Shown here piece after piece: positions 7,687-29,358 of a stretch of DNA of 64,000 bases. How positions within the stretch are numbered: the stretch's first letter is position 1; the number at the start of each line of letters is the position of its first letter. The stretch lies in IMG/VR virus record IMGVR_UViG_3300030433_002104, positions 32,001 to 96,000 of that record, one strand, 5' to 3'. The translations under genes were made by a program, and so were the position numbers. The notes under the pieces were generated by a model. The model was not told the origin of the DNA, ran no database searches, and was given only the letters and a program-made list of their open reading frames with translations. Source of the stretch: a virus. Lineage: Duplodnaviria > Caudoviricetes.

Positions 7687-8939
7687 ACTTCATATACGAT
7701 AGAAGAAATTTTTTGCGAGTAGGGAGTATTGGCGCTGGATTAAGTGCCGTTGGGTTATCTGATTACGCCTTAGCTCAAGATGCTCTGTCGTATGAAGATA
7801 AAGCCGTTGTTTGGGTGTGGCTTGGAGGAGGGCCAACTCAGTTTGAAACATTCCACGCCCCTAACGATACAGTTCCAACTGAATGGCAACCAATCAATGG
7901 AGCTATTCATGATCCAAAAACAAATATCACTCTTGGCGCTGACTGGACAGAGCTAGCTAAACACACAAGCAAGCTAAATGTTGTCAACTCTTTTAGCCAT
8001 AAAGATTCATCTCATAGACAAGGTACTCACTTCATGATGACTGGGCACTACAACCCAGAAAGAACAACAACATCTATAGCTAAGTATCCATCTTTTGGTT
8101 CTATTGTTTCCGCTGTTTATGGCACGAATCACCCCCAGAATGGAGTGCCAACATATGTCAAACAAGGTAAAATAGAAGGTGATGAAGGCGCTTGGCTTGG
8201 TGGAGCATACAAGCCTTTCGATCCATCAAATAAAGACAACCTTACACCAAGAATTGAAATCGACAGATTTAGCAATAGAAAACAACTCTTGGGAGCTATA
8301 GGCTCAGCGGCCAAAGATATATCTGGAGCAGGCGCTGAATCAGTTGGGTTTTACAAAGGTCAGGCTTATGATGTTATTCTTGGCTCAGCCAAAGATGCGT
8401 TCGCAACAGACAAAGAAACGGAACAAACTAAAGCTTTGTATGGGTCAGAAAAAGCGAATGATATTGGCGAACAAATGTTGCTAGCTCGTCGTCTTGTGGA
8501 GCATGGCACAAGATTTGTCACTCTTCATTATGGCGGATGGGACATGCATAGCAATATTTCAGACGCACTTAAGAAAAGGGTGTCTCCAATCGACAAGGCT
8601 ATCGCAGGATTCCTAGAAGACCTAGATCAACGAGGGCTAAGTAATAAAGTATTGCTCGTGGTAACTGGAGAGTTTGGGAGAACAAAGATTAACGCCAACG
8701 CTGGCAGAGACCACTGGCCTGCAATTACGCCAATGATGATGGCTGGTGGAGATTATCAAACTGGCAGAACTATCGGTGCATCTGACAGATCTTATAGCCC
8801 AGTTGAAAATCCTGTAGGCCCACTTGACTTACAGGCAACACTGTTTGACCACTTTGGGATAGAAAAGGGAATTCAACGCGTGGACAACGGCGGTCGCCCA
8901 AGATATTTATTAGAAGGAGAAGCTAAGGTAATATTATAA
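7680..8939 (+). CDS. DUF1501 family protein with Tat signal
   Basis: RRNFLRVG twin-arginine signal, WLGGGPTQFETF, LLARRLVEHG, GGWDMH, GEFGRT, GRDHWP. Confidence 0.88.
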   Translation: MLDFIYDRRNFLRVGSIGAGLSAVGLSDYALAQDALSYEDKAVVWVWLGGGPTQFETFHAPNDTVPTEWQPINGAIHDPKTNITLGADWTELAKHTSKLNVVNSFSHKDSSHRQGTHFMMTGHYNPERTTTSIAKYPSFGSIVSAVYGTNHPQNGVPTYVKQGKIEGDEGAWLGGAYKPFDPSNKDNLTPRIEIDRFSNRKQLLGAIGSAAKDISGAGAESVGFYKGQAYDVILGSAKDAFATDKETEQTKALYGSEKANDIGEQMLLARRLVEHGTRFVTLHYGGWDMHSNISDALKKRVSPIDKAIAGFLEDLDQRGLSNKVLLVVTGEFGRTKINANAGRDHWPAITPMMMAGGDYQTGRTIGASDRSYSPVENPVGPLDLQATLFDHFGIEKGIQRVDNGGRPRYLLEGEAKVIL

Positions 8940-9721
8940 TGGATGAACACACCAAAGTCTGCATAGTGGGAAAATCTAGTAGTCTTTCGGGTAAAAAACT
9001 AGGAAGTGTAATAGACTCTCATGACTTAATAACTAGGATAAATTTCAAGAACAGTCATGACCACGATGAGTCGTTATATACGCAAGACATTGGTGAAAGG
9101 ACACACCATATAGTTGCACACCCAAAAGTAGTTAGACATTATGTTAACAACGCTGTAGATGATCTAATCAAAAACTTGAAATCTATTGAAGATTCTGAAT
9201 ATGGAAAGAAGATTTTCATTATCACATACAGCAAGGAATTTTGGGATGTTGATGGGGACTATCCGCCTAAACCTTATCGGCTTCCAAAAGATCCACCAAA
9301 TATATTTACAAAAAAGGAAAAAGACCGATGCATTAGAGATTTTTGGGGTATGTGCTGGGACTTAGGAGTAGTTATTGAAAAATGTTACTACTCAGAAATG
9401 ACAAGAAACATACATGACATGATGGCTTACTTTTATGATAAACCTCTTGGCCATCCTCATGGATTATTCACCGGGACTGCAACAGTACTAGACTACACAA
9501 AAAAATACAAGAATATTAGTATAGCAGGACTGGGGAATGAATCAACATATTCACACGATAAAATAAATTTCAGAAAAGACAAAAACAGATATTACGGAAA
9601 GACTAGACCTCTAGCGGCAAACATAAGGCTGGAGTACGATCAGTTTTTTATCAGGCAGGCTATCAAGTCTGGAAGAATCAATAGGTTAGATGATGAAAAT
9701 TGTAATACCATTCAAGTTTGA
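8939..9721 (+). CDS. GT29 sialyltransferase-like protein
   Basis: Sialylmotif L-like CIVGKSSSLSGKKLGSVIDSHDLITRIN...YTQDIGERT, S-like FTGTATV...ISIAGLG, motif III-like RYY. Confidence 0.72.
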   Translation: MDEHTKVCIVGKSSSLSGKKLGSVIDSHDLITRINFKNSHDHDESLYTQDIGERTHHIVAHPKVVRHYVNNAVDDLIKNLKSIEDSEYGKKIFIITYSKEFWDVDGDYPPKPYRLPKDPPNIFTKKEKDRCIRDFWGMCWDLGVVIEKCYYSEMTRNIHDMMAYFYDKPLGHPHGLFTGTATVLDYTKKYKNISIAGLGNESTYSHDKINFRKDKNRYYGKTRPLAANIRLEYDQFFIRQAIKSGRINRLDDENCNTIQV

Positions 9722-10352
9722 CTCTACTAGACTACCAAATAAAAACATCATAGAGTTTGCAGACGGAAAGTCTTTGTTAGACATTAGCGTTGAGAACTTT
9801 AAAAAACATAACCATGAAGTATTTTTAGCGTGTGAGGATAGAGGAGAGACATATGATCTCCTTAAAAAGTATGATGCACAGCATATACCACTCAGCGACA
9901 CATCGAATCAGTGGCTAAACGTTTTAATTGAGCTCTCAGAAAGTTTGAATAAAAAGTTTTCGCCAAAAGAAGCAGTTTGTTTCTGGCAATGCATAATGCC
10001 ATTGTTTTGGCTGTATAATGATATAGAAGTTTTTTTTGACTTTGCAAAGGAAAATATAGGTAAATACGAGTCGGTAATCCCCGTCTATGAGTTTAAAGAC
10101 TATCTTGTAGATGAAAACTTGCAAGGCTTAAATTTTGGCCCCGGAAGCTGGCATGTGCCTTCTCAAAACTTACCAAAGATTTATTATATAACACCAATGT
10201 GCGTGACGACACCAAGCGTGTTACACAAATATAGATATACATACTCACCAAACTCTGTATTGTGGACGGCAAAAGGGCCGTATATTGATATAGACACGCA
10301 GGAAGAATTTAATATAGCCAAACTAATATGGAACGATCATCAACAAAGGTAA
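9690..10352 (+). CDS. CMP-nonulosonate/CMP-Kdo synthetase-like cytidylyltransferase
   Basis: IVIPFKFDSTRLPNKNI...GKSLL N-terminal signature, SQNLP, DIDTQEEF. Confidence 0.8.
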   Translation: MMKIVIPFKFDSTRLPNKNIIEFADGKSLLDISVENFKKHNHEVFLACEDRGETYDLLKKYDAQHIPLSDTSNQWLNVLIELSESLNKKFSPKEAVCFWQCIMPLFWLYNDIEVFFDFAKENIGKYESVIPVYEFKDYLVDENLQGLNFGPGSWHVPSQNLPKIYYITPMCVTTPSVLHKYRYTYSPNSVLWTAKGPYIDIDTQEEFNIAKLIWNDHQQR

Positions 10353-10393
10353 ATTATAGTTATAAAAGACTTAATAGTTCAGGAGAATCATTA

Positions 10394-17196: not shown

Positions 17197-17514
17197 ATGA
17201 ATTTTTGTTCTTTTACTGGGTTCTTAGTTGATGACCCAAAGTTGGAAGATGATAATAACGTGAGTCTACTAAGGTTCACCATCGTGTGCTATACGTATAG
17301 AAAGACGAAAAGCACTGGAGAAAAAAGCAGGATTCCAACATTCATGAGCTGCGAGGCTTGGCATACTGGCGCTGAGACAATAGCTAAGTTCGCAAAAAAA
17401 GGTACTAAGATACACATCCATGCCTCGGCTAGGAATCCAGCCAAAGGTAAATCTGGGATAGTATTCAGAGTTAATGAGTTTGACATTATAAACCAAGAGG
17501 CATCAGATGCGTAA
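17197..17514 (+). CDS. ssb: single-stranded DNA-binding protein (OB fold, no long tail)
   Basis: MN...TGFLVDDPKL, CEAW...AETIAKFAKKG SSB signature. Confidence 0.78.
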   Translation: MNFCSFTGFLVDDPKLEDDNNVSLLRFTIVCYTYRKTKSTGEKSRIPTFMSCEAWHTGAETIAKFAKKGTKIHIHASARNPAKGKSGIVFRVNEFDIINQEASDA

Positions 17515-19168
17515 GAAACGAATTTTATTCTGTAGTGAAGCTACTTTTCTAAACACGGGTTATGCTACATATACAAGAGAGATCTTGAACTATCTTCATT
17601 CTACAGGCAAATATGAAATTGCTGAGATGGGATGTTATGGAATGATAGGAGACCCTAAAGCTGCGGACATACCTTGGAAGTTTTATGGTGTAGTACCACC
17701 AGAGAATTTTCCCGAAGAGAAGAAAAAAGAGTACCACTCTAAACCTACAAACCAGTTTGGAGAATGGATATTTGAGGAAGTGTGTTTAGACTTCATGCCA
17801 GATATTGTCTGTGATATTCGTGACTTCTGGATGCTAGACTTTGCAGAACGATCTCCCTATAGAGATTATTTTAAGTGGTGCATAATGCCAACTGTTGATG
17901 CTAGACCACAAGCAAGACAGTGGATAGCCACTTATGAGGGAGCTGATGCCTGTCTATCATATTCTGATTGGGCTGGTGGTATTTTGGAGGATCAATCCGG
18001 TGGGAAGATAAACTATATAGGATGTGCTCCTCCATCTGCTCACCCTGCGTATCAACCTGTAGAAGATAAGGACATGCACAAAGTAAATGTTGGAATTGAC
18101 CCTGCCTTCAAGGTTATTGGGACTGTCATGAGGAATCAGCGTAGAAAGCTTTTCCCAGACTTGTTTGAAGCGTTTAGAAAGTTCTTAGACGCATCGGAAG
18201 ATAAAAATTATTACCTATACTGTCACACTAGTTACCCAGACTTAGGCTGGGATATACCAGAGCTGATCCATCAAAATGAGTTGGCATCTAAAGTTATGCT
18301 GACATACATATGTAAAGAAACTGGCAGGCCGTTTCCTTCTTTATTTAAAGGGGCAGTAATTCAATCCCCATTTACTGGAAGACGCAGTGCTGTTGTGTGC
18401 AGTGTTAAAGATGGGGCGACTTATGAAGATTTAGCTTCAATTATCAACACGTTTGATGTCTATATTCAGTATGCAAACTCAGAAGGTTTTGGACTTCCTC
18501 AAGTAGAAGCAGCTGCCTGTGGAGTGCCTGTCATGTCAACAGACTACTCAGCGATGGAAAGCGAAGTGCGTAAACTTGGAGGCGTACCGCTAAAGCCAAG
18601 AGCTTTATACAAAGAACTTGAAACTGGCTGTTACAGGGCAGTGCCCGACAACGACAACACCGCTAAAGAACTATTGAAGTTCTTCTCGCTTAGTCAGGAA
18701 GAAAGAGACGAGCTTGGTAAGACTGCTCGTAAAAACTTTGAAGAAAAGTACCAATGGCATTTGAGCGGTGCGATGTGGGAAAACTACTTCGACAGTGTAG
18801 AAATTCTTCCAATAGAGCAGACTTGGTTATCTCCACCCAAGATTAGACAGCCAGAGCCAAAGCCTCAAGAACTACCTCAAAATGTAACGCATCAAGGTCT
18901 AGCAAAATGGCTTATATCTAGCGTATTATGCGAGCCAGAAAAGCTTGACAGTTTTACGGAGGCAAGGCTGTGTAGAGATTTATCCTATCAAAGCTCAACG
19001 GGAACCACTGGAGGAATGTACTACAACGAAAGCTCGGCAGCTTTTGACGGCGCAGCTACTAGGAACCCATTCAACTTTGATATTGCATATAACCACTTGA
19101 AGGCTTTGTGTGAGAGAAGAAATCACTGGGAACAAGTTAGATGGCAAAGGATGCAGAATATTAGATGA
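17507..19168 (+). CDS. GT4 (GT-B) glycosyltransferase, large
   Basis: TGYATY, MRNQRRK, SEGFGLPQVEAAACGVPV (EX7E). Confidence 0.88.
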   Translation: MRKKRILFCSEATFLNTGYATYTREILNYLHSTGKYEIAEMGCYGMIGDPKAADIPWKFYGVVPPENFPEEKKKEYHSKPTNQFGEWIFEEVCLDFMPDIVCDIRDFWMLDFAERSPYRDYFKWCIMPTVDARPQARQWIATYEGADACLSYSDWAGGILEDQSGGKINYIGCAPPSAHPAYQPVEDKDMHKVNVGIDPAFKVIGTVMRNQRRKLFPDLFEAFRKFLDASEDKNYYLYCHTSYPDLGWDIPELIHQNELASKVMLTYICKETGRPFPSLFKGAVIQSPFTGRRSAVVCSVKDGATYEDLASIINTFDVYIQYANSEGFGLPQVEAAACGVPVMSTDYSAMESEVRKLGGVPLKPRALYKELETGCYRAVPDNDNTAKELLKFFSLSQEERDELGKTARKNFEEKYQWHLSGAMWENYFDSVEILPIEQTWLSPPKIRQPEPKPQELPQNVTHQGLAKWLISSVLCEPEKLDSFTEARLCRDLSYQSSTGTTGGMYYNESSAAFDGAATRNPFNFDIAYNHLKALCERRNHWEQVRWQRMQNIR

Positions 19169-19977
19169 TAAGTTTTATTGTACAAGGGCCAGTGTCAGAA
19201 TCTACACAAAACACAGTAGACTCTATACTGGAACATTATCCAGACTCGGAAATAATCTTAGCGTCTACCAATGGAGTAACAGATGTAGACAATGTAGACA
19301 AGATACACTTGGATGGTCATGATGAAGAAGTAATACTAAATAAACAAATACTCAGCAGTAGAGCTGTAAACAAAGCTAAGTTTGATGTAGCCTGCAAGGT
19401 AAGAAACGATATTGTTTTTACAAATAACAACTTAATGAATTTCGTCAATGGTGAGTTACTTTCGCAGGAGCCTCATCAGAGACTGGAAACCCATCGCTTG
19501 TTTGACAGGCTTGTTCTTTCCAGTAATTACTTTTTCTGCAACCCAGAAACATCAGGGTTTTACTATCATCCATCGGACTGGATTTTCTTAGGACTTACAT
19601 CAGACCTGAAAAAACTCTTCAACATTCCGCTGCAAGACCCAAAGGAAAACGTTTACTACTTGGAAGAAGAGGTGGTATTACCTTTTGGGGACGTGATCAC
19701 TGGCGAAAGAATGAAATATAGACCAGAGCAATATATATTTGTAACTGCTCTAAATGAGGCTGGCTTCGATGTATCTCTTGACTACGAATACCAAAAACCA
19801 GAAGATCAATTGTCGGCTTATAGATTTATAGCAAACAATTTTTATATATCAGACGCAGGAGAGGACTCTGGATTTCACTGTTCCAAGTATCCGCGCAACG
19901 TGGGAGAACACCCACATCTACTAAACAATCATCAATGTAACCTATTAAGAGAAGCTATGCTAGAGGAAGTTAAATGA
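19165..19977 (+). CDS. WavE-like LPS synthesis protein
   Basis: ISFIVQGP, EIILAST, KVRND, YHPSDWIFLG, PEQYI match the WavE family pattern. Confidence 0.7.
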   Translation: MISFIVQGPVSESTQNTVDSILEHYPDSEIILASTNGVTDVDNVDKIHLDGHDEEVILNKQILSSRAVNKAKFDVACKVRNDIVFTNNNLMNFVNGELLSQEPHQRLETHRLFDRLVLSSNYFFCNPETSGFYYHPSDWIFLGLTSDLKKLFNIPLQDPKENVYYLEEEVVLPFGDVITGERMKYRPEQYIFVTALNEAGFDVSLDYEYQKPEDQLSAYRFIANNFYISDAGEDSGFHCSKYPRNVGEHPHLLNNHQCNLLREAMLEEVK

Positions 19978-21089
19978 AGGTTTTATATATAGCACATTAC
20001 AAAGAAGGCACTGGCTGGTCGCAAGCAGCTATTGATTATATACTTGCGATGGACTCTGTAGGGATTGACGTAGCTTGTCGCAATGTTTCTCTAACTGGAG
20101 CCAACGCCGAAGTCCCTCAAAGGATTTTAGAGCTAGAACAGAAGGATATATCAGACGCTGAGGTATGTATCCAACACGTTTTACCGCACCATTTGGTGGG
20201 CTCAGATAAGTTTAAAAAGAACATAGCACTCTTTGTCTCTGAGACATCAAGTATTAAGATGAATCCTTGGTTTGTACATTTAGAACAGATGGATGAGGTG
20301 TGGGTTCCAAGTGAACACCTTTGGGATAGTATGTCTCAGGACAATATAAATGCTGTCGTCAAGGTAGTACCGCACGCATTTGAGATGTCAAAGTATAAAA
20401 AGAAATATCCTCAAATGTTAAACCAACAAACAGACGGTACATTTAAGTTCTATTATATTGGCGATCTTAACCAGCGTAAAAATATCGAATCAATACTTAG
20501 ATGCTTCCATAGCGAGTTTGATGTTTCTGAGCCAGCGTCTCTCATACTAAAAGTAAACAAGTTCGGGCACGATCCACAGCAAGTCCATCAGGTTGTTGAT
20601 GGTATATCTCAAAAAATAAAGCATGAGCTACGGATGTACGATGACGTAAGAATGTACAAACAGGAAGCAGTTCTCTCGTCAAGAATACCAGAAGAAGACC
20701 TATACGGCTTACACCAATACTGCGATTGTTTTATATGTCCATCTCATGGCGAAGCGTGGTCTATCCCATCGTTTGATGCTATGGCCTTTGGCAACACCCC
20801 AATCTGTAGTGATTTTGGTGGCCCTAGAGATTTTATAGATAAAGACAACAAGAATACTGGATGGGTTGTTTCAGGTGTGGATTCCGTATGCACTTACACT
20901 GACGCAGCTTTCAAAGAAATATTTACTGGAAGAGAAACTTGGGTAACGCCAAACGAGTCTGAGATTAAAAGAGCTATGAGATATTACTATGAGAATAGAA
21001 ATGATAGCTCAGATGGGCTAGAAAGAGCTGAGCAGTTCTCTTACGAAAACGTAGGCAATTTAATTAAGGAATTTTTAGGTGGTAAGTAG
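19974..21089 (+). CDS. GT4 glycosyltransferase
   Basis: TGWSQAA, VWVPS, RKNI, PSHGEAWSIPSFDAMAFG. Confidence 0.85.
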   Translation: MKVLYIAHYKEGTGWSQAAIDYILAMDSVGIDVACRNVSLTGANAEVPQRILELEQKDISDAEVCIQHVLPHHLVGSDKFKKNIALFVSETSSIKMNPWFVHLEQMDEVWVPSEHLWDSMSQDNINAVVKVVPHAFEMSKYKKKYPQMLNQQTDGTFKFYYIGDLNQRKNIESILRCFHSEFDVSEPASLILKVNKFGHDPQQVHQVVDGISQKIKHELRMYDDVRMYKQEAVLSSRIPEEDLYGLHQYCDCFICPSHGEAWSIPSFDAMAFGNTPICSDFGGPRDFIDKDNKNTGWVVSGVDSVCTYTDAAFKEIFTGRETWVTPNESEIKRAMRYYYENRNDSSDGLERAEQFSYENVGNLIKEFLGGK

Positions 21090-22104
21090 TCATAAAATTA
21101 GAATACCAGCATTGCCTCCATCGGTGGAGACAAGAAATATAATCAGCAAGGTTGGAGAGAGTAAAAAAGATAAATATACAATCTTGACTTTTCCGACGCA
21201 CGAAAGATATGAAACGGGACTGGCTAAAACAGGTCACGACTTCTATGCTTTCAGGTCTGAAGGTTTAAAGGACTGGAATACAAATTATGGGCAAGTACCG
21301 CCCAACTATTACCTACTTCCACCTGAGTCTATCTTTAACGGTATACAGTTTGATTTCATCCTGTCTCAGAGTAAGTTTGGTCAGTTCCAAACCGCAAAAC
21401 TTTTACAGGAGCGATTAGGAGTTCCTTTAGTGTCTTTGGAGCACACGCTGCCTACATCAAATGTAAAGCCAGAGTGGTTAGAAGAAATCAGAACTATGTC
21501 TGGAGATATTGACGTTTTTATCTCAGAGTATTCTAGAGACGAATGGAAAATTAATAGCACAAAGTCTGAGGTAGTTCATCACTGTGTAGACTCGGAATTG
21601 TTTAAGCCATCAGATGTTGAACAATCGCCATATGTTTTGAGCGTTGTCAACGACTTTAGAGGTAGAGACTATTGTTGTAACTATTCAGGATGGGAGCGAG
21701 TGACTGAAGGATTAGAGACAAAGGTGGTAGGGGAAAATGGAGATTTGGGAAGCCCCGCAGAGTCAGTAGAAAAACTTGTCGAAGAATATAATAGTGCGCA
21801 AGTTTTCCTTAATACATCCACGGTTAGTCCAATCCCAACCGCCCTCTTGGAAGCAATGTCTTGCGGATGCGCTGTAGTTACAACCGCCACATGTATGATA
21901 CCTGAAATAGTTAAAAATGGTGTGAATGGTTTTATCTCTAACGATGAAAAGGAATTGCGTGGATATATAGAACAATTATTGGAAGACGAAGAATTAAGAA
22001 ACAAACTTGGACAAGAAGCGAGAAAGACAATACTGGAAGACTTTTCAGAACAACGTTTTCTTGAATCTTGGGCAGACATATTTGACAAAGCTTACGGAGT
22101 ATAA
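21079..22104 (+). CDS. GT4 glycosyltransferase
   Basis: VFISEY, LLEAMSCGCAVV, PEIVKNGVNGF, LGQEARK. Confidence 0.85.
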   Translation: MVSSHKIRIPALPPSVETRNIISKVGESKKDKYTILTFPTHERYETGLAKTGHDFYAFRSEGLKDWNTNYGQVPPNYYLLPPESIFNGIQFDFILSQSKFGQFQTAKLLQERLGVPLVSLEHTLPTSNVKPEWLEEIRTMSGDIDVFISEYSRDEWKINSTKSEVVHHCVDSELFKPSDVEQSPYVLSVVNDFRGRDYCCNYSGWERVTEGLETKVVGENGDLGSPAESVEKLVEEYNSAQVFLNTSTVSPIPTALLEAMSCGCAVVTTATCMIPEIVKNGVNGFISNDEKELRGYIEQLLEDEELRNKLGQEARKTILEDFSEQRFLESWADIFDKAYGV

Positions 22105-22106
22105 AA

Positions 22107-22529
22107 ATGAAATTACATATAGTAAACCCAGAACAAGATGTGATTGAAGGCTATGAGCGCGTTGATGTAGTCAACGGAGCTATAGACTTATCACAGTATG
22201 CTGAAAATGAGTGCGACTTTATTCTAGCATCTGACTCTCTAAACGGCATGAGTATAGAACAGGCTCATCAAGCAGTTTTTGAGATTACTAAAAAGATGCG
22301 AAGAAATGCCAAGCTAGTTATTGGAGGGCTAGACATTAGACTCGTTGCCAGACACATAGTGCGTGGCGGCTGGAATACGCCAGAGGCGAACCAGAATATC
22401 TTTTCTAACAGCTCCTGCTTGGATGTTAATTATACTAGAAATTTATTAGCAAGCTGTGGACTTACAATAGAATCAACTAGAGTTTTAGGATTATCTTATG
22501 AAATCGAAGCAACAAGAAAGCTGGGCTAA
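22107..22529 (+). CDS. degenerate methyltransferase-like protein
   Basis: ENECDFILASDSL...KKMRRNAKLVI...LLASCGL resembles the C-terminal half of a class I MTase; no GxG motif. Confidence 0.4.
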   Translation: MKLHIVNPEQDVIEGYERVDVVNGAIDLSQYAENECDFILASDSLNGMSIEQAHQAVFEITKKMRRNAKLVIGGLDIRLVARHIVRGGWNTPEANQNIFSNSSCLDVNYTRNLLASCGLTIESTRVLGLSYEIEATRKLG

Positions 22530-23247
22530 AACCTCTTGCAGAGAGTGCAATCTTGCAGTATTTGAGGGCAACAAGCAAACAGGATGTCAGGCCAAAAGGT
22601 TAAAAAAGTTTGCGAGCATAGTTCACTCGTATGATGATGAAAAAGAGTTCTACGTTATAAACGACGCTTGCAACTATTATTCGTCCACAGAAACCATGGA
22701 ACAAGTTGTACAGAGGAAAAAAGTCAAATTCGGCATTGTTGTAAACGTAGATGAAAAGAACATAAATCTAGAAGCTACAGTTAATTCCATTGTCAATTCT
22801 GGATACCAGTCAGATAAGATGTCTGTTATCATAGTACATAGAGGCAATACTAACGAAGATATTAAAAAAGCTGTAATATCTGGACTGAAAACGCTAGAGG
22901 ATAAAGACATACCTTGCATTGCTGTGGCATTGGCAAAGCACGCCGATATTGACTATGAGTCTTTTAAGCACACTAATGGATGCAACTATTGCTGCAGGGT
23001 TTATGCAGGACAGTTGATATATCCGAACACTTTTGCGTTTATTAACAATCATCTTAATTTGAGCCTTGGCAAGAGTGTCTACTTTAGACAGCCAGAGGAG
23101 CCAAACAACATTAATATCATACTAAGAAAAGTTATTTCTCTTAGGTATTTGAATTATGGTAACTATTCTGATTTTGAACAGGGCGTAGCTGAAGAAGCAA
23201 AACAAGAGAATTTGTATATAGAAATAAAAGATGCGAAGAAACACTAA
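22498..23247 (+). CDS. hypothetical protein, Cys-rich N-terminus plus degenerate GT2-like domain
   Basis: CRECN...C...C; FGIVV...LEATVNSIV...MSVIIV GT-A-like start; no DxD. Confidence 0.45.
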   Translation: MKSKQQESWAKTSCRECNLAVFEGNKQTGCQAKRLKKFASIVHSYDDEKEFYVINDACNYYSSTETMEQVVQRKKVKFGIVVNVDEKNINLEATVNSIVNSGYQSDKMSVIIVHRGNTNEDIKKAVISGLKTLEDKDIPCIAVALAKHADIDYESFKHTNGCNYCCRVYAGQLIYPNTFAFINNHLNLSLGKSVYFRQPEEPNNINIILRKVISLRYLNYGNYSDFEQGVAEEAKQENLYIEIKDAKKH

Positions 23248-24004
23248 TTTTATAACGTCGCCAAGAGAGAAGGCTTCGGGCGAAAGGGTTGATGACTTTG
23301 TTAGCATCATACTTTTGTCGGAGAACTGCGGCTATAGAATGAAATCATACGGGCCAATACCGCTCCTAAAGATAGGCGGCAAGTGCTTAATTGATACGCA
23401 AATAGAAGAAATACAAAGTGTTTTTTCAGAGTTTGAAATTATACTATGCAGTGGCTTTGGGTCTACAAAAATAGCAAAGTATATCAGAGAGCAATACCCA
23501 GCGTTGAACATTAGGATAGTAGAAAACCAATTATATGAGTATTCAAATTCCTGTGAAAGTTTAAGACTATGTTTAAATAACACAACTAACAATAAAGTCC
23601 TAGTTTGTAACGGCGAACTAATGATAAATAGGGATGTATTGTCGCTTATAAGTTTGAAATCTTCTTTTATAGTCTCAGAATCTGTTGACAATGACAATTT
23701 AGAAGTTGGAGTTACTATCAACGAACGAGGACATACTGAGAATTTTTGCTATGGTATTGAAAACACTTGGTCAGAAATACTATTCTTGCATGAAAAGAGT
23801 ATCGTAGAAACCATACGCGCTATAATATCAGACGCTGAGTATAAGAACAAATTTATCTTTGAGGCGCTCAACGAGCTAAGCAGGACAAAGCACAGGCTAT
23901 CAGTAGTAGAAAACAACATCGCACCAATAACCAAAATAAATAACATAAAAACTTATCATCAAATTAGGAAGACAAATGAAAGCACTAATACAAAACTACA
24001 TTAA
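23231..24004 (+). CDS. nucleotidyltransferase-like protein (LicC/MobA-like), signature degenerate
   Basis: IILLSENCGYRMKSYGPIPLLKIGGKCLI, VEN..Y..SNSCESL, VCNGE. Confidence 0.65.
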   Translation: MRRNTNFITSPREKASGERVDDFVSIILLSENCGYRMKSYGPIPLLKIGGKCLIDTQIEEIQSVFSEFEIILCSGFGSTKIAKYIREQYPALNIRIVENQLYEYSNSCESLRLCLNNTTNNKVLVCNGELMINRDVLSLISLKSSFIVSESVDNDNLEVGVTINERGHTENFCYGIENTWSEILFLHEKSIVETIRAIISDAEYKNKFIFEALNELSRTKHRLSVVENNIAPITKINNIKTYHQIRKTNESTNTKLH

Positions 24005-24851
24005 TGGCGAGAGTACAGAGGCTGGCTATATTACTGAGTGTTTAAATAGAGCCGGTGTAGAGGCTCAGTTATGGGCAGATGGAATGAGTGCATACGACAA
24101 GATGGACTTGTTTTCTCCAGATGTCGTGTTTGCACACTATATGTTTCTTACAGGAGACATTATACGGTATTTGTCAAATAGCCAGATACAGATTGTTATC
24201 AACGTGACAGGCATACAACAGCATGAGCTGGATACTATTGTGAAAGAGATTAAGGATAAAAATGTTAACTGCCCATTCATGTTTAGCAATCTTCCTAGAG
24301 AGGCTATCAAGGTTAAGACAAATGACATTAAGATCCACAGCATAATGAGCGCTGCCGATGTATTCTTAACATCTACTGATTACTTTGATAACTTTGACAT
24401 AGATCTAGGCATTGTATCAGATTATGATGCAACATCTAAGTTTTCTGAAGATACGGCAGACATTCGGAGCTGGCACTTCCTTAGCACATCACCAGACTTA
24501 CAGTCTTCAGACATACTAGCGCCAATACAGCAAATGCCTAGCCTATATCCTAGATACAAAAAGATAATTGTTACGGTAGACGGGCCAAGAATTCCACAAC
24601 ATTTCTTTGACGCAATTATGCATGGTAATGAAGTATCGTTTAAAAGCAAATACAACATGCAAGACGAGGTGTCGCAAAAAGTTATTGCTAAGCTACTAGG
24701 AGAAGACAGCAGCAAGTGGAAATCTTCTGTGGAAAAGAAGCATACATGCATTAATAGAGTTGACAAGCTCTTATCGCTGCTAGGTGTAAAGGATGTTGCC
24801 AAAAATATAGGAAAGGCTAAAAATGATAACAGTAATACTCAATGGCTATAA
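23976..24851 (+). CDS. hypothetical protein, possibly divergent GT-B/CgeB-like
   Basis: PDVVF, RIPQHFFDA, C-terminal KHTCINRV; lies within the glycan cluster. Confidence 0.4.
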   Translation: MKALIQNYINGESTEAGYITECLNRAGVEAQLWADGMSAYDKMDLFSPDVVFAHYMFLTGDIIRYLSNSQIQIVINVTGIQQHELDTIVKEIKDKNVNCPFMFSNLPREAIKVKTNDIKIHSIMSAADVFLTSTDYFDNFDIDLGIVSDYDATSKFSEDTADIRSWHFLSTSPDLQSSDILAPIQQMPSLYPRYKKIIVTVDGPRIPQHFFDAIMHGNEVSFKSKYNMQDEVSQKVIAKLLGEDSSKWKSSVEKKHTCINRVDKLLSLLGVKDVAKNIGKAKNDNSNTQWL

Positions 24852-25563
24852 AAGACCGCAAGCATTAAAAGAGCAATACGAGGCACTTAAAAAACAAACG
24901 TTTGATGATTTTAAGGTGATGCTTTGGTGCAACTATGACGAAGACTCATACGACAAGTTTCCTAAAGAAGTAGTAGAGAACTGCACAACTGCGATGTGTA
25001 ACGAAAACCTTGGTGTTTGGGCTAGGTTTGCATATGCTTTAAATGCTGAAACCAAGTACATATGTATGCTTGACGATGATACAATTCCCGGAAGTAAGTG
25101 GCTGGAAAACTGCGTAACAACCATGCAGACACACTTGGGACTGTTGGGTTGTCGTGGCGTGAGAATGACAGGTGATGATTACGCAAATTATCCGGCTTGT
25201 CAGTACGAGGCTTTTGGAGCTGCCAATCCTAGCAACGAAGTAGAGCCTGTAGATATTATGGGGCACTGTTGGTTCTTTGAAAGAGAGTGGTTAAGGGCGT
25301 ACTGGGCAGACATGCCTAGCACACGACTGACTGCTGGCGGAGAAGACATGCACTTTTCATATGTGCTACAAAAGCACTATGGGCTAAAGACTTATGTTCC
25401 TCCTCATCCAGCGGACGACATGGAAATGTGGGGCTCAACAGATCCACAGAAGTATGGAGAAGATATGTCAGCAACTTCGCGTACTGGATTAGGGCACGCA
25501 CAGGCAAATGCATATTGGAAATTCATAGTTTCCACAGGATACACTTTAGTAAAGGATATGTAA
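24823..25563 (+). CDS. GT-A (GT2-like) glycosyltransferase
   Basis: ITVILNGYKRP, YICMLDDD, GEDMHFS. Confidence 0.82.
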   Translation: MITVILNGYKRPQALKEQYEALKKQTFDDFKVMLWCNYDEDSYDKFPKEVVENCTTAMCNENLGVWARFAYALNAETKYICMLDDDTIPGSKWLENCVTTMQTHLGLLGCRGVRMTGDDYANYPACQYEAFGAANPSNEVEPVDIMGHCWFFEREWLRAYWADMPSTRLTAGGEDMHFSYVLQKHYGLKTYVPPHPADDMEMWGSTDPQKYGEDMSATSRTGLGHAQANAYWKFIVSTGYTLVKDM

Positions 25564-26591
25564 TGTTAGTTATATCATTTGGAACTAGGCCGGAATGGAT
25601 TAAGATCAAACCTGTAATAGACAAGATACAAGGTAAAATACCATTTAAACTGCTCTTTACTGGGCAGCATACATCTCTAATAGATAGTAGCATAGAAAAT
25701 TACGACTATCAAACTTTAAGGATTGACGATTCGTTAGGCGGCTGTAGGCTAGATGCGATAGTCTGCTCAGTGTTAGATAACCTAAGTACATTAGATGAGG
25801 CGTCCGCAGTCATGGTGCAGGGCGACACTACTTCAGCTTTTGCTGTGGCTTTGGGCGCTTTTCATAGAGGTATCCCAGTCATTCATCTTGAGGCAGGACT
25901 AAGAACATTTGATAAATTTAATCCGTATCCAGAAGAATTCAATAGGTGCTCTATTTCTTCTATGGCAGACATACACCTGTGCCCAACCATATCTTCTGCA
26001 CACAACGTTATGAGACACAACAATTCAAACGAAGGCGTACACGTTGTTGGCAACACAGTATTAGACAATCTTGTAGATTACAAGGTAAAATCTGAAGACT
26101 TTGTTCTTGTCACAATGCATCGCAGAGAGAACCACAAAATGATACAAGACTGGTTTATCCAGATCAATCATTTAGCCGCAACTACGCCAGACCTAGAATT
26201 TATCCTTCCTCTTCACCCAAACCCAAACGTGAGAAAGTACGAATACCTACTCACAGATGTTACGGTTGTAGACCCACTTCCTTATCACGAGTGCATAGAT
26301 CTTGTAAGTAGATGCAAGTTTCTCATAACAGATAGTGGAGGTTTGCAGGAGGAATCAAGCTTTTTTGGCAAGCGCTGTATAGTTTGTAGAAAAGTGTCTG
26401 AAAGGACTGAAGGGGTAGGAGACTTTGCCTTTATGTGCCTAACACCGGAAGACCTTCCCGGTCTCTATGAAAAAGTGTTAGAGGCTTGTGGTATAAAAGA
26501 AATAGTTACTTTACCGTGCCCATATGGAGATGGGTATGCAGCAGAAAAGATATTAGAAATACTGGAGGACGTAGAATGTCTAAGAAAGTAG
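25563..26591 (+). CDS. wecB: UDP-N-acetylglucosamine 2-epimerase (non-hydrolysing)
   Basis: FGTRPE, TGQH, VQGDT, HLEAGLRT, PEEFNR, HRREN, TDSGGLQEE, PYGDG; ATG 25563 overlaps the upstream TAA. Confidence 0.93.
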   Translation: MLVISFGTRPEWIKIKPVIDKIQGKIPFKLLFTGQHTSLIDSSIENYDYQTLRIDDSLGGCRLDAIVCSVLDNLSTLDEASAVMVQGDTTSAFAVALGAFHRGIPVIHLEAGLRTFDKFNPYPEEFNRCSISSMADIHLCPTISSAHNVMRHNNSNEGVHVVGNTVLDNLVDYKVKSEDFVLVTMHRRENHKMIQDWFIQINHLAATTPDLEFILPLHPNPNVRKYEYLLTDVTVVDPLPYHECIDLVSRCKFLITDSGGLQEESSFFGKRCIVCRKVSERTEGVGDFAFMCLTPEDLPGLYEKVLEACGIKEIVTLPCPYGDGYAAEKILEILEDVECLRK

Positions 26592-27550
26592 TGGTTTTTG
26601 GTGGTGGCGGATTTGTGGGTTCAAGGCTCTGCCCAGCACTGCAAGACAAGTATGACCTGACAATAGTTGACACATTCTGGTTTTGGGATAGTGTTGAAGA
26701 ATATAAAGAAAAAGTCGGGATCACAGCTAAGTGTATCCAAGAAGATACTAGGGATAAAGGAATATCCAAGATAATTAATAACGCGGATGCAGTTATAAAC
26801 CTGTCGTGCTTATCTAATGACACGAGCTCCGACATAAACTATAACTTTACGCATGATGTTAGTTACAACGGCGTTATGAACGTTGTCGATAATTGTATTA
26901 GAAAGAAGATTCCTAAACTAATACAGACATCCACCACGAGCGTATATGGCATCAAGCAAGGCAAGCTAGTTACTGAAAAAGAAATTCCTGAACCAATTAC
27001 ACAATATGCGAAAATAAAAGCAGAGATAGACCATGTTTTGAGCTATTATATGGTATACGGAAATACTGGTATTACTTCGCTTAGACCGGCTACGCTTTAC
27101 GGATACTCACCAAGACTCAGACTTGACATCATGGTGAATACCATGCTAGACAGGGCCATCCGTGATAACAAGCTAATGGTTGAGGGTGGAGAACAATGCA
27201 GGCCGTGCCTACATGTTGATGATTTGTGCTTAGCTTATGCTGAGTGCTTAGAAAATCCAAACTCCAACGGCAAGATTTATAATGTCACTAATGAGAATTA
27301 CTCTGTAAACCAAGTTGTTGATCTTATAAAGCAAGCAGTACCAGAGGTAGAGATTCACTATCAACACGTATTAGACCAAAGGTCATACAAAACAAGTTCA
27401 GCACTGATCAAAAAAGACTTAGGCTTGAAGTTTAGGAAAAAGCTAAAAACTTCAATCAAGAAGTTATACCAAGAGATTAAGTATGGTCATCACGACCGCA
27501 GCAAAACCATTAATTTAAGAGTAATCAAAGGAGTCCTCAAGAATGGCTAG
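26576..27550 (+). CDS. NAD-dependent sugar epimerase/dehydratase (extended SDR)
   Basis: GGGGFVG, STTSVYG, YAKIK (YxxxK), LRPATLYG, RPCLHVDD; GGAGG upstream of ATG 26576. Confidence 0.88.
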   Translation: MSKKVVVFGGGGFVGSRLCPALQDKYDLTIVDTFWFWDSVEEYKEKVGITAKCIQEDTRDKGISKIINNADAVINLSCLSNDTSSDINYNFTHDVSYNGVMNVVDNCIRKKIPKLIQTSTTSVYGIKQGKLVTEKEIPEPITQYAKIKAEIDHVLSYYMVYGNTGITSLRPATLYGYSPRLRLDIMVNTMLDRAIRDNKLMVEGGEQCRPCLHVDDLCLAYAECLENPNSNGKIYNVTNENYSVNQVVDLIKQAVPEVEIHYQHVLDQRSYKTSSALIKKDLGLKFRKKLKTSIKKLYQEIKYGHHDRSKTINLRVIKGVLKNG

Positions 27551-28355
27551 TATGAGCACACCGCCATCAAAAACGCCAGAAGCTGACTTTGAGGTAATTA
27601 AGTCAATGCTTTCCAACGGCGAAAACTTTTCCTTGTCTAGATTCTCAGACGGTGAATTGTTGGTGTGTAACGGTATTGAGGTAGCGATGCAGTCTGGCCA
27701 TAATCAAATTGGCGAGGCTACATTTCATGCGGACAATAGCAAAGATGACATTAAGCATTTTGACCCTAAATTACACGGTGAGACACAAAAGAGGCTGTAC
27801 AAGGCTTTATTATATAATGCGCCCAACTATTTTAAGGGGTTGAACTGCTATTGCTGTACCGCTAAAATGTGGAGCCCAGCATTAGTGACTAGAGAAAGAC
27901 AGTTTGCGGGGTTTGATGTGTCTAGGCTGACTTGGGCCAATGTCCTCATAAACTCAAACTACAAAAGATTTATGGATGAGATTGTACCAATACTAAAGAC
28001 TAGAAAGCTTTACATGGTCGTGAATGAAAATGCAGACTTAGACGCTTCTGAGTTTAACATAGAGCGTGCGTTTAGAGTTGGTCAAAACTGTATGGTAAAT
28101 GACATTGGCTTGATAGATGAAATTAAATCATATATAGATGATAACAGCGTCGTTGATGGCGTGTTCTTATGTGCGGCTTCTAGCCTATCCAACATGATTA
28201 TACATGAGTGTCACATGCATAACACAAATAATACATATATTGATATTGGTTCATCACTCAACCCACTACTGCCGGGAATCGGAAGTAGAAGAGAATATAT
28301 GAAGCAACTAACCGGAGACATTCAACAAATGGAGAGCTGTAGATGGGGCTGGTAG
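27543..28355 (+). CDS. GT-D fold (DUF1792-like) glycosyltransferase
   Basis: SLSRFSDGE and YIDIGS motifs. Confidence 0.68.
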   Translation: MASMSTPPSKTPEADFEVIKSMLSNGENFSLSRFSDGELLVCNGIEVAMQSGHNQIGEATFHADNSKDDIKHFDPKLHGETQKRLYKALLYNAPNYFKGLNCYCCTAKMWSPALVTRERQFAGFDVSRLTWANVLINSNYKRFMDEIVPILKTRKLYMVVNENADLDASEFNIERAFRVGQNCMVNDIGLIDEIKSYIDDNSVVDGVFLCAASSLSNMIIHECHMHNTNNTYIDIGSSLNPLLPGIGSRREYMKQLTGDIQQMESCRWGW

Positions 28356-28723
28356 AATGTACATATGACTACTGGGGTTTTGTATTAGAAGTAAGAAACC
28401 TGACGAGCAAAGCGTTCTTTGTAAAAAGCCACATAACTAAGGCAGAGCACTTTGACTTTATGTTAAAAAATTATCAAACTTATAGGATTTGTATTGACGA
28501 CGAAGGAACACCTATGGGGTTTGTAGCGCATGTAGACAATGATATTAGAATAGCTACACATCCAAAATTTCAAAAGAGAGGCGTAGCTAAGTTTATGCTA
28601 ACAGAATTTATGGCTGAGTTTCCAGAAGCTGTCGCCAAAGTAAAACACGATAATATTGCAAGCCTTAACCTTTTTGAGTCTTGCGGTTTTCAAGTAGATT
28701 ATTATGGATTGAAAAAATGCTAA
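28343..28723 (+). CDS. GNAT N-acetyltransferase (PseH-like)
   Basis: HPKFQKRGVA acetyl-CoA motif, NIASLNLFESCGF. Confidence 0.82.
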   Translation: MGLVECTYDYWGFVLEVRNLTSKAFFVKSHITKAEHFDFMLKNYQTYRICIDDEGTPMGFVAHVDNDIRIATHPKFQKRGVAKFMLTEFMAEFPEAVAKVKHDNIASLNLFESCGFQVDYYGLKKC

Positions 28724-29358
28724 GACACCCACATGAAATTGTAAAATGGTTTGAAGAAGAAGTTGCTCACTATACAGGCGCTAAGTACGCGGTCGCAGTA
28801 GATAACTGCACTAATGCAATACGTATGTGCTGTGAGTATTTACAGGTTAAAGAAGTTACTATACCTAGCAAAACTTATTTGTCAGTGCCGCAGTCTATTA
28901 TACAGGCCGGCGGCAGAGTTAAGCTAGAAGAATTGGAATGGCAAGGCATATACCAACTTAAGCCATATCCAATTTATGACGCAGCTAAAAGGTTTACGTC
29001 AGAAATGTACATAGAAGGCACACTCATGTGTTTATCGTTTGGCATTAAAAAGAACCTTAAGCTGGGAAAGGGTGGAATGATTCTGACGGACAATATTGAT
29101 GCAGTTGAAGCCCTTAAAAAACTTAGGTGGTCAGGACGACACGAGTCTACGCCTATGCCCGAAGACGAAGTAAACGATATGGGTTACAATAGTTATATTA
29201 CGCCAGAGTGGGCGGCCAGAGGCCTCATGTTGCTGAGTGTGTACCCAGAACACCACTCAGACCAACACGAAGAAGGCGGGTATCCTGATCTAGCTAGATA
29301 TGGATTTATGAAAAAACACAGCAAAAATAACGGAATTGGTTTTAATGAAACAAGATAA
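28717..29358 (+). CDS. DegT/DnrJ/EryC1/StrS sugar aminotransferase, short form
   Basis: FEEEVAHYTGAKYAVAVDNCTNA, YDAA, SFGIKKNL.LGKGGMILTD, MGYN. Confidence 0.83.
   Translation: MLRHPHEIVKWFEEEVAHYTGAKYAVAVDNCTNAIRMCCEYLQVKEVTIPSKTYLSVPQSIIQAGGRVKLEELEWQGIYQLKPYPIYDAAKRFTSEMYIEGTLMCLSFGIKKNLKLGKGGMILTDNIDAVEALKKLRWSGRHESTPMPEDEVNDMGYNSYITPEWAARGLMLLSVYPEHHSDQHEEGGYPDLARYGFMKKHSKNNGIGFNETR

What the first reader, a model, noticed from the sequence alone, without database searches (positions are those of the whole stretch)
8939..10352. Eukaryote-type (GT29) sialyltransferase-like gene paired with a CMP-sugar synthetase in a phage
Seen: clear sialylmotif L-like and S-like segments and RYY (motif III-like), overlapping a cytidylyltransferase gene. 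The VS-motif His appears replaced (ANIRLE rather than HxxxxE), the L-motif Asn is Lys, and there is no membrane anchor. Established: GT29 uses CMP-activated nonulosonates and is mostly eukaryotic, with scattered bacterial and viral members. Inference: a two-gene donor-plus-transferase capping module for a sialic-acid-like or Kdo-like sugar, perhaps with altered chemistry.
Basis: partly seen in the sequence, partly recalled or inferred. Interest (0 to 1): 0.75.

Follow-up and report, generated by a model that had tools for sequence, protein, structure and literature searches.

The report
Histidine-less phage sialyltransferase-like sugar module
An uncultured marine phage carries a tightly coupled gene pair, an enzyme that CMP-activates a sialic-acid- or Kdo-like sugar and a small soluble relative of sialyltransferases. 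The transferase belongs to a phage-only branch in which both histidines that do the chemistry in known family members have been replaced.

Summary
ORF A (8939-9721, 260 aa) passes Pfam GT29, and its model matches only solved sialyltransferases (GT29 Z 12-14, GT42 Z 11). ORF B (9690-10352, 220 aa) passes Pfam CTP_transf_3 and folds like CMP-Neu5Ac, CMP-Kdo, CMP-Kdn and CMP-Pse synthetases. The two genes overlap by 32 nt and neither product has a membrane segment.

The pairing recurs directly adjacent in at least ten other distinct metagenomic phage contexts, down to 28%/32% identity, and both genes are under purifying selection.

"Eukaryote-type" is not supported. This is a soluble phage branch, and no relative was found in 185,579 prokaryotic genomes.

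ORF A belongs to a "VGK" group of 14 sequences. All 14 lack the VS-motif catalytic His (here A227), and ORF A's own HG subclade also lacks the motif-III His. 76 of 78 other GT29-like ORFs keep a His in the VS region. The subclade instead has invariant K12, at the CMP-phosphate-binding Asn position, and H174, beside the acceptor pocket.

"RYY" is not at the aligned motif III position. Sugar and acceptor are unknown: the record holds no NeuB or KdsA.

This scan has already noted phage GT29 plus CMP-synthetase pairs in at least 19 other genomes. The His-less subclade is the new element.

The parts
8939..9721 (+). ORF A: 260-aa soluble GT29-fold transferase homologue of the His-less VGK/HG subclade
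   Evidence: Pfam PF00777 36.6 bits, gathering score 23. AF2 model pLDDT 74, pTM 0.78. Foldseek top 30 hits are all GT29. VIA Z 11.8-13.7 to GT29 chains. dN/dS 0.21-0.22.
8960..9121 (+). Sialylmotif L equivalent (residues 8-61). K12 (8972-8974) replaces the CMP-phosphate-binding Asn. S13, D26, H28, D29, R33 and N35 are kept.
   Evidence: Alignments to ST8SiaIII and ST3Gal-I. These residues are invariant in the subclade.
9458..9535 (+). Sialylmotif S equivalent (residues 174-199): HGLFTGT...AGLG. H174 (9458-9460) is invariant in this subclade only. The S-motif Cys is absent.
9560..9580 (+). Aligned position of sialylmotif III (residues 208-214, KINFRKD). No His or Tyr is present.
   Evidence: 17-residue spacing to the VS His in ST3Gal-I, ST8SiaIII and L011. 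Alignments. Loop pLDDT below 50.
9617..9634 (+). Sialylmotif VS equivalent (residues 227-232, ANIRLE). The catalytic-base His is replaced by A227; E232 is kept.
   Evidence: alignment to pig ST3Gal-I..
9690..10352 (+). ORF B: 220-aa CMP-ulosonic acid synthetase homologue. Homologues begin MK, so the real start is probably the second ATG at 9693.
   Evidence: PF02348 28.8 bits, gathering score 22.6. AF2 pLDDT 86. The top-ranked Foldseek hits, down to about rank 40, are all CMP-Neu5Ac, CMP-Kdo, CMP-Kdn or CMP-Pse synthetases, TM 0.62-0.70. dN/dS 0.04-0.13.
9708..9746 (+). ORF B nucleotide-binding loop P7-F-K9-F-D-S12-T-R14-L-P-N-K18-N19
   Evidence: Invariant in 15 homologues. Aligns to the KdsB IPARFxSTRLPGK loop.
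10287..10298 (+). ORF B D200-I-D202-T metal-binding motif
   Evidence: Invariant. Aligns to the GVDTEEDL segment of KdsB 2y6p.
9690..9721 (+). 32-nt overlap of A and B (translational coupling)
   Evidence: Overlaps of 4-60 nt, or direct abutment, recur in the relatives.
17507..33638 (+). Phage glycan-building cluster, the inferred source of the acceptor glycan: three GT4, WavE, GT2, a WecB-type epimerase, an SDR, GT-D-like, GNAT, a short DegT, a methyltransferase and a HAD-nucleotidyltransferase
   Evidence: The link to A and B is inferred only.

Best explanation
ORF A and ORF B form a conserved, translationally coupled phage module that works in the cytoplasm of the infected cell.

ORF B condenses CTP with a 2-keto-3-deoxy ulosonic acid to give the CMP-sugar. 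The motifs lean towards a nine-carbon nonulosonic acid over Kdo. The sugar is probably supplied by the host or by the unsequenced third of the genome.

ORF A is a soluble GT29-fold enzyme that binds this CMP-sugar through its intact L motif and transfers the sugar to an acceptor. The acceptor is most likely a glycan built by the phage's own glycosyltransferase cluster, on virion proteins or on an envelope precursor.

ORF A belongs to a phage-only subclade whose active site is rewired. The motif-III acid His and the VS base His are gone. K12 sits where an Asn normally hydrogen-bonds the CMP phosphate. H174 sits next to the acceptor-contacting residue that packs against the VS His site. These two are proposed to take over leaving-group stabilisation and base catalysis.

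Shown: homology, fold, motif states, conserved adjacency, purifying selection. Inferred: activity, the roles of K12 and H174, sugar identity, acceptor.
For: Family and fold
- for A; for B.
- Full-length homology of the His-less subclade to canonical phage GT29s: hhalign probability 99.9%, E 6e-31.

Conserved adjacency
- B lies immediately downstream of a GT29-like gene in window/L036/L037, L003/L041, L017/L045, L011/12, L015/16, L018, L020/L048, L049, L026 and L090.
- L015 is a different genomic setting, next to SSB, ThyX, GT2 and sugar-isomerase genes.

Selection
- dN/dS is 0.21-0.22 for A and 0.04-0.13 for B.

Active-site pattern
- None of the 14 VGK-type ORFs has a His at the canonical VS position. 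76 of 78 non-K ORFs have a His in that region.
- K12, K91, K128, H174 and G175 are invariant in the subclade.

Literature
- In hST3Gal1, H299A, Y300A and H316A are inactive. N147 hydrogen-bonds the CMP phosphate. Y266 contacts the acceptor and neighbours V315/H316 (PMC6884586).

ORF B motifs
- The P-loop, Q100...P104 and D200-x-D202 are kept.
- The QCxxPL and DIDT motifs and the 220-aa length resemble NeuA/PseF more than KdsB's QGDEP.

Other
- Glycan genes accompany the pair in every longer contig.
- Neither protein has a TM segment.
Against: - Both His residues that are essential in characterised GT29 enzymes are missing, so ORF A could be inactive.
- The roles of K12 and H174 rest on alignment position and co-variation. 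I had no model coordinates, so no distances were measured.
- The VGK-to-no-His association reflects at most two independent clades.
- A second VGK clade (L019 type) lacks H174.
- No ulosonate synthase (NeuB, KdsA) is in the 105-kb record or in five related viral records.
- The WecB-type epimerase is the non-hydrolysing kind, not NeuC.
- ORF B is far below every NCBIfam equivalog cut-off (PseF 31.7 against 205.7), so the sugar cannot be named.
- The module sits in the replication gene block, not beside structural genes.
Confidence: 0.6

Rival explanations
1. ORF A is a catalytically dead GT29-fold protein. It would act as a CMP-sugar- or glycan-binding subunit, chaperone or regulator that works with ORF B or with another transferase, rather than transferring sugar itself.
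For: - The equivalents of H299 and H316 are absent (N210 or K208, and A227). Their Ala mutants are inactive in hST3Gal1.
- The cytosine-stacking Trp position is Ile.
- A evolves about five times faster than B at the protein level.
- The motif III loop is deleted in some members (L006, L007).
Against: - The donor-binding L-motif residues and T178-G179 stay invariant. New invariant residues (K12, H174, K91, K128) appear at or near the active site. This looks like replacement rather than decay.
- dN/dS of 0.22 is still purifying.
- Pairing with the synthetase persists from 95% down to 28% identity.
- No second GT29 that could do the chemistry is present in this genome.
Confidence: 0.22
2. The pair modifies a host envelope glycoconjugate rather than the virion. 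One route would add a Kdo-like or nonulosonic residue to lipid A-core or a capsule precursor at the inner face of the membrane, to block superinfection or alter the cell surface.
For: - The module sits in an island bracketed by two Tat-signal DUF1501 envelope proteins, next to a lipoprotein-like and a membrane protein.
- A WavE (LPS core) homologue follows the pair in L003 and is present in the window's cluster.
- It appears co-transcribed with early and middle replication genes.
Against: - I saw no flippase, polymerase or lipid-carrier transferase among the cluster genes scanned.
- The phage looks lytic and large, with giant structural proteins.
- No host is known.
- This differs from the best explanation only in the acceptor.
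Confidence: 0.12
3. The pair acts on DNA or nucleotides. A GT29-like enzyme would attach a CMP-activated sugar to a modified base, so the loss of the hydroxyl-activating His would reflect a different nucleophile.
For: - The module keeps its position between dNMP kinase/PD-(D/E)XK nuclease and PolIII alpha in the window, L011 and L012. It also lies immediately upstream of a split PolIII-sized gene set in L017 and L026, where ORF sizes only were read.
- In L015 it lies near SSB and ThyX.
Against: - No thymidylate-synthase-type hydroxymethylase and no ThyX is in the 105-kb record.
- In L003, L007 and L015 the immediate neighbours are sugar genes.
- The conserved position is explained by shared synteny within one phage lineage.
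Confidence: 0.05

Closest known systems
Soluble bacterial GT29-like sialyltransferase homologues (Petit et al. 2018, Sci Rep 8:2946, PMC5811610)
   Same: Short and cytoplasmic, with no transmembrane anchor and no conserved L-S disulfide pair. The sialylmotif L is recognisable and the function is uncharacterised.
   Different: Those 23 sequences are reported to keep all four sialylmotifs. ORF A lacks motif III and the VS His. ORF A's subclade was not found in 185,579 prokaryotic species genomes and is seen only on viral and metagenomic contigs.
Eukaryotic GT29 sialyltransferases (pig/human ST3Gal-I 2wml/2wnb, ST8SiaIII 5bo9, ST6GalNAc2 6apl, ST6Gal1)
   Same: GT-A variant 2 fold (Z 11.8-13.7, rmsd 3.0-4.1 A over 174-203 residues). 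L motif including Cys, Ser, IDxHD and RxN. T-G of motif S. Glu of motif VS.
   Different: No stem or TM segment and no S-motif Cys. The CMP-phosphate Asn is Lys (K12). The motif III His/Tyr are absent. The VS catalytic His is Ala (A227). There is an extra segment of roughly 50 residues (about 100-150) compared with the canonical phage forms.
Canonical phage GT29-like proteins paired with the same synthetase family (L011, L015, L018, L020; P0011-P0013)
   Same: Same size class, same gene order, and the same ORF B family downstream (58-67% identical to the window's B). Full-length homology, hhalign E 6e-31.
   Different: They keep HYWD (motif III) and a His in the VS region and have VGS rather than VGK. 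They are only about 25% identical to ORF A.
GT42 sialyltransferases CstI/CstII of Campylobacter jejuni
   Same: Same fold variant, soluble, bacterial, using a CMP-NulO donor (Z 10.8-11.5).
   Different: No sequence-level match. Pfam and PDB profile searches pick GT29 only.
CMP-ulosonic acid synthetases NeuA (1eyr), PseF (9ftc), CMP-Kdn synthetase (9t4z), KdsB (2y6p, 1vic)
   Same: Fold (TM 0.62-0.70). P-loop S-x-R-x-P-x-K, Q...P motif, D-x-D-T motif and a length of about 220 aa.
   Different: Under 20% identity. The first P-loop Arg is Lys (K9). It falls below every NCBIfam equivalog cut-off. The motifs mix KdsB-like STRLP with NeuA/PseF-like QCxxPL and DIDT. No relative was found in prokaryotic reference genomes.
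GT29 genes of giant eukaryotic viruses (coccolithoviruses EhV-18/EhV-156, PMC5371807)
   Same: A virus-encoded GT29 homologue.
   Different: Those viruses infect eukaryotes. This is a tailed-phage-type genome with bacterial-style replication genes. I did not compare the sequences.

Membership tests
GT29 / Pfam PF00777 Glyco_transf_29 | Score above Pfam's gathering threshold | tested here: met
   36.6 bits against 23, but only over residues 6-69, the L motif. Relatives P0011 and P0020 match the profile at 55-271, and ORF A's subclade aligns to such forms over its full length.
GT29 / Pfam PF00777 Glyco_transf_29 | GT-A variant 2 fold as in solved GT29 structures | tested here: met
   Foldseek top 30 hits are all GT29, best E 8e-9. 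VIA Z 11.8-13.7. GT42 is close behind at Z about 11.
GT29 / Pfam PF00777 Glyco_transf_29 | Sialylmotif L with its invariant residues, including the CMP-phosphate Asn of VGN | tested here: inconclusive
   C8, S13, D26, H28, D29, R33 and N35 are present. The Asn is K12, though Ser occurs at this position in some known GT29s (PMC6884586).
GT29 / Pfam PF00777 Glyco_transf_29 | Sialylmotif S (P-S-T-G ... Cys ... G-F-G) and the invariant L-S disulfide | tested here: not met
   Only T178-G179 and G197 are kept. There is no S-motif Cys. Bacterial GT29 also lack it (PMC5811610).
GT29 / Pfam PF00777 Glyco_transf_29 | Sialylmotif III with the invariant His (catalytic acid) and Tyr | tested here: not met
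   The aligned position reads K208-I-N-F-R-K with no His or Tyr. RYY lies 7 residues downstream. The loop has low confidence.
GT29 / Pfam PF00777 Glyco_transf_29 | Sialylmotif VS H-x4-E with His as catalytic base | tested here: not met
   A227-N-I-R-L-E232: the Glu is kept and the His is absent. The same holds in all 14 VGK-type ORFs.
GT29 / Pfam PF00777 Glyco_transf_29 | Transfer of a CMP-activated ulosonic acid with inversion | not testable with these tools
   Needs an enzyme assay.
Eukaryotic Golgi sialyltransferases (type II membrane GT29) | N-terminal membrane anchor and stem | tested here: not met
   The L motif starts at residue 8. Maximum KD19 is 0.78.
CMP-ulosonic acid synthetases / Pfam PF02348 CTP_transf_3 | Score above the gathering threshold, and the fold | tested here: met
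   28.8 bits against 22.6. The top-ranked Foldseek hits, down to about rank 40, are all from this family, best E 2e-12, TM 0.69.
CMP-ulosonic acid synthetases / Pfam PF02348 CTP_transf_3 | Catalytic motifs: N-terminal P-loop Arg/Lys pair, Q...P motif, C-terminal Asp pair | tested here: met
   K9 (conservative for Arg), S12, R14, K18, P104, D200 and D202 are invariant. Q100 is present in 13 of 15 homologues.
PseF / KdsB / NeuA equivalogs (NCBIfam TIGR03584, TIGR00466, PRK05450) | Score above the equivalog cut-off, which is what would name the sugar | tested here: not met
   PseF 31.7 against 205.7. KdsB subfamily models (PRK05450, PRK13368) score 18.5-21 against 193-255, and the KdsB equivalog TIGR00466 scores 16.7 against 155.2.

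The most novel reading that the evidence does not exclude
The VGK/HG subclade is an active, phage-specific class of ulosonic-acid transferase that has moved its catalytic machinery within the GT29 fold. Lys12 would replace the motif-III His as leaving-group catalyst, and His174 would replace the VS His as base. This may come with a new acceptor type or linkage. The phage lineage would use it, with a dedicated and equally phage-specific CMP-sugar synthetase, to put an acidic sugar on its own virion glycans.
Probability: 0.35. Interest if true: 0.75.

Novelty: new variant of a known kind. Interest (0 to 1): 0.6.

Why it matters
GT29 is the textbook animal sialyltransferase family, and its mechanism is taken to rest on two histidines.

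This is a conserved, selected natural lineage that lacks both, yet stays welded to a CMP-sugar synthetase. Either it shows that the fold can do the chemistry with other residues, which is useful for enzyme engineering and for reading other "dead-looking" GT29s such as the plant ones. Or it shows a new non-catalytic use of the fold.

It also adds to evidence that large marine phages make and attach acidic sugars. Phage-encoded GT29 was absent from the literature I could search. The sugar's role (virion shielding, adhesion or host-surface remodelling) is open.

The pair is small, soluble and easy to express, so the question can be tested directly.

Tried and rejected
- PHROGs and the cultured-phage collection gave nothing for A or B. 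The PolIII half finds only relatives at about 30% identity, so no host could be inferred.
- NeuB (PF03102) and KdsA (PF00793) were searched in the own record and in five related IMG/VR records and not found. All of these records are incomplete.
- Thymidylate synthase/hydroxymethylase and ThyX were not found in the own record, so the DNA-modification reading gained no support.
- A genome-contig scan with A1 failed for lack of a conserved stretch. Scans with A2 and A4 ran and found no relative.
- RYY as motif III was rejected on spacing and on two alignments.
- E232/D234 as the alternative base was considered. E232 is Gln in P0007/L007b and His in L043, so it is not invariant.
- H61 (at the Y191 position) and H206 are not conserved in the subclade.
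- I could not read model coordinates, so no distances to the donor site were measured.
- Complex prediction was not used. I make no claim that A and B bind each other.
- No phylogenetic tree against eukaryotic GT29 was built, because no eukaryotic sequences were available by reference.
Full report
**What is there**

The window is part of a 105-kb IMG/VR virus record estimated 63% complete. The + strand carries RecA, DnaB, primase, dNMP kinase, a PD-(D/E)XK nuclease and a split PolIII alpha. A 16-kb glycan gene cluster follows. Giant structural ORFs lie on the - strand.

A runs 8939-9721 (260 aa) and B runs 9690-10352 (220 aa). They overlap by 32 nt and sit in a chain of abutting or overlapping genes. 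Neither has a hydrophobic segment; the maximum KD19 is 0.78 for A and 1.07 for B.

**ORF A is a real GT29 homologue**

- Pfam PF00777 scores 36.6 bits against a gathering score of 23, but only on the L motif.
- phmmer finds ST8SiaIII and ST3Gal-I.
- A family profile hits only GT29 chains in the PDB. ST3Gal-I scores E 4e-18 in two stretches that also cover S, III and VS.
- The AF2 model has pLDDT 74 and pTM 0.78. By Foldseek its first 30 hits are all GT29, followed by GT42.
- VIA gives Z 11.8-13.7 for GT29 and 10.8-11.5 for GT42, then a drop to unrelated folds.

**Motif states**

- L motif: C8, S13, I25-D26, H28-D29 and R33-x-N35 are present. The VGN Asn is K12.
- S motif: T178-G179 and G197 are kept. 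The Pro, Ser and Cys are not.
- VS motif: pig VHDGDFE aligns with AANIRLE, so the catalytic-base His is A227 and the Glu is E232.
- Motif III: in ST3Gal-I, ST8SiaIII and the canonical phage form L011, the motif III His lies 17 residues before the VS His. That places it at N210. hhalign places it at K208. Neither is His.

According to PMC6884586:
- H299 (motif III) is the catalytic acid and H316 (VS) the catalytic base of hST3Gal1.
- H299A, Y300A and H316A are inactive.
- N147 hydrogen-bonds the CMP phosphate at 2.7 A.
- Y266, just before motif S, contacts the acceptor and neighbours V315/H316.

**A His-less subclade, not a one-off**

HMMER against 1.84 billion representatives finds only 18 relatives. 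Viral and metagenome scans add many GT29-like ORFs. I aligned 123 unique ORFs to one HMM.

- 14 full-length ORFs have Lys at the VGN position. None has a His at the canonical VS position.
- Of 78 non-Lys ORFs, 71 have a His within 9 residues before the Glu column. Five more have it one or two residues later or in an insert. Only two (L119, L092) truly lack it.
- Eleven of the 14 Lys-type ORFs, including ORF A, form a subclade with an invariant H174-G175 just before the T-G of motif S. No non-Lys ORF has HG at that position.
- Within this subclade the invariant residues are C8, V10, G11, K12, S13, G18, G22, I25, D26, H28, D29, R33, N35, D50, G52, T55, K91, K128, H174, G175, G179, T180, N192, G197, F236 and G245.
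- The subclade is homologous over its full length to canonical phage forms: hhalign probability 99.9%, E 6e-31.
- By position, K12 replaces the phosphate-binding Asn, and H174 precedes the residue equivalent to acceptor-contacting Y266.

I therefore propose that K12 and H174 replace the two lost histidines. This is inference. I could not read coordinates. The association also rests on at most two independent clades, and the second one (L019 type) has no H174.

**ORF B is a CMP-ulosonate synthetase homologue**

- PF02348 scores 28.8 bits against 22.6.
- The best NCBIfam hit is PseF over its full length, at 31.7 bits, far below the cut-off of 205.7. KdsB models hit the N-terminus.
- PDB profile hits are all KdsB.
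- The AF2 model has pLDDT 86. The top-ranked Foldseek hits, down to about rank 40, are all CMP-Neu5Ac, CMP-Kdo, CMP-Kdn or CMP-Pse synthetases, with TM 0.62-0.70.
- Fifteen homologues (54-67% identical) keep P7, F8, K9, S12, R14, K18, N19, P104, D200, I201 and D202.
- The loop STRLPNK looks KdsB-like.
- QCxxPL (rather than KdsB's QGDEP), DIDT, the 220-aa length and the better coverage of NeuA-type targets lean towards a nine-carbon acid.
- The sugar cannot be named.

**The pair is a module**

B lies directly downstream of a GT29-like gene, from a 60-nt overlap to direct abutment, in:
- the near-identical L036/L037
- L003/L041 (A 35-37%, B 55%)
- L017/L045 (A 28%, B 32%)
- L011/L012, L018, L020/L048 and L049
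- L015/L016, L026 and L090

It lies within 0.5-2 kb in L002, L111 and L029.

L015 is a different setting, with SSB, ThyX, GT2 genes and a sugar isomerase.

B is far better conserved than A. L011's B is 67% identical to the window's, but its partner is a canonical His-bearing GT29 only 25% identical to ORF A. The same donor enzyme therefore serves both canonical and His-less transferases.

dN/dS against two close relatives is 0.21-0.22 for A and 0.04-0.13 for B.

**Not eukaryote-type**

- ESM Atlas neighbours are PF00777 clusters that are 68-100% Uroviricota.
- Neither the B family nor the VGKS subclade has a relative in 185,579 prokaryotic species genomes.
- Petit et al. 2018 described soluble bacterial GT29s without a TM segment or the disulfide Cys pair. 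They do not mention phages.
- My literature searches found GT29 listed in two coccolithoviruses but no paper on GT29 in tailed phages.
- This scan's own notes list such pairs in at least 19 other genomes.

**Sugar and acceptor**

- No NeuB or KdsA is present in the record or in five related viral records, all of which are incomplete.
- The cluster's epimerase is WecB-type (241.6 bits against 210), not NeuC.
- Upstream of the window the genome has a eukaryote-type phosphomannomutase and a ManC-type cupin.
- Longer contigs carrying the pair always carry other glycan genes.
- No thymidylate-synthase-type enzyme supports a DNA-modification role.
- The acceptor is unknown. I rank a phage-built glycan on virion proteins first and a host envelope precursor second.

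**Verdict**

It is a real, conserved donor-plus-transferase module of an uncultured marine phage lineage. It belongs to the soluble phage/prokaryote branch of GT29. Its transferase lies in a subclade that has lost both catalytic histidines and gained K12 and H174.

Noticed in passing
window 10328-11425 (+): A 365-aa protein with net charge +36, matching DUF5824, DUF5754 and phrog_7595, overlaps the end of ORF B by 25 nt. A DUF5824 protein also follows the GT29 genes in L007 (5632-6600).
   Followed up: partly
window 7680-8939 and 11649-12860 (+): Two DUF1501 (sulfatase-like) proteins with twin-arginine-type N-termini bracket the island. DUF1501 genes also sit near the GT29 gene in L007, L011/L012 and L002.
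   Followed up: partly
L007 3754-4479 and 4822-5601; L019 9995-10636, 10630-11184 and 7451-8149: Some relatives carry two or three GT29-like paralogues in tandem. L007 has two His-less copies split by a cupin gene. L019 has two VGK-type copies plus a VGN-type copy.
   Followed up: partly
L043 1950-2738; L119 3-995; L092 2974-3639: In L043 the residue at the VS Glu position is His (TQTHYD). L119 and L092 are VGN-type GT29-like ORFs that also lack any His in the VS region, possibly a further independent loss.
   Followed up: no
window 13269-17131 (+); L011, L012: PolIII alpha is split into two genes with an exonuclease gene between them. The arrangement recurs in L011/L012 (Pfam-annotated), and L017 and L026 show the same ORF-size pattern, so it looks like a lineage trait.
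   Followed up: no
window 17507-33638 (+): A large glycan cluster: three GT4, WavE, GT2, a WecB above its equivalog cut-off, an SDR, GT-D-like, GNAT, a methyltransferase and a HAD-nucleotidyltransferase fusion. The DegT-type aminotransferase at 28681-29358 is only 225 aa and matches just the N-terminal part of the profile.
   Followed up: partly
L038 9483-10172, 10751-12022, 17141-17803, 19182-19892 (genome upstream of the window): The phage also encodes a PAP2 phosphatase, an M19 membrane dipeptidase, a ManC-type cupin and a eukaryote-type phosphomannomutase. A PAP2 gene also precedes the DUF1501 genes in L007.
   Followed up: no
L002 8001-9624: A close relative on a 39-kb long-read contig has the GT29, ORF B and many neighbouring genes broken into pieces by frameshifts. 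These are most likely assembly errors, not pseudogenes.
   Followed up: no
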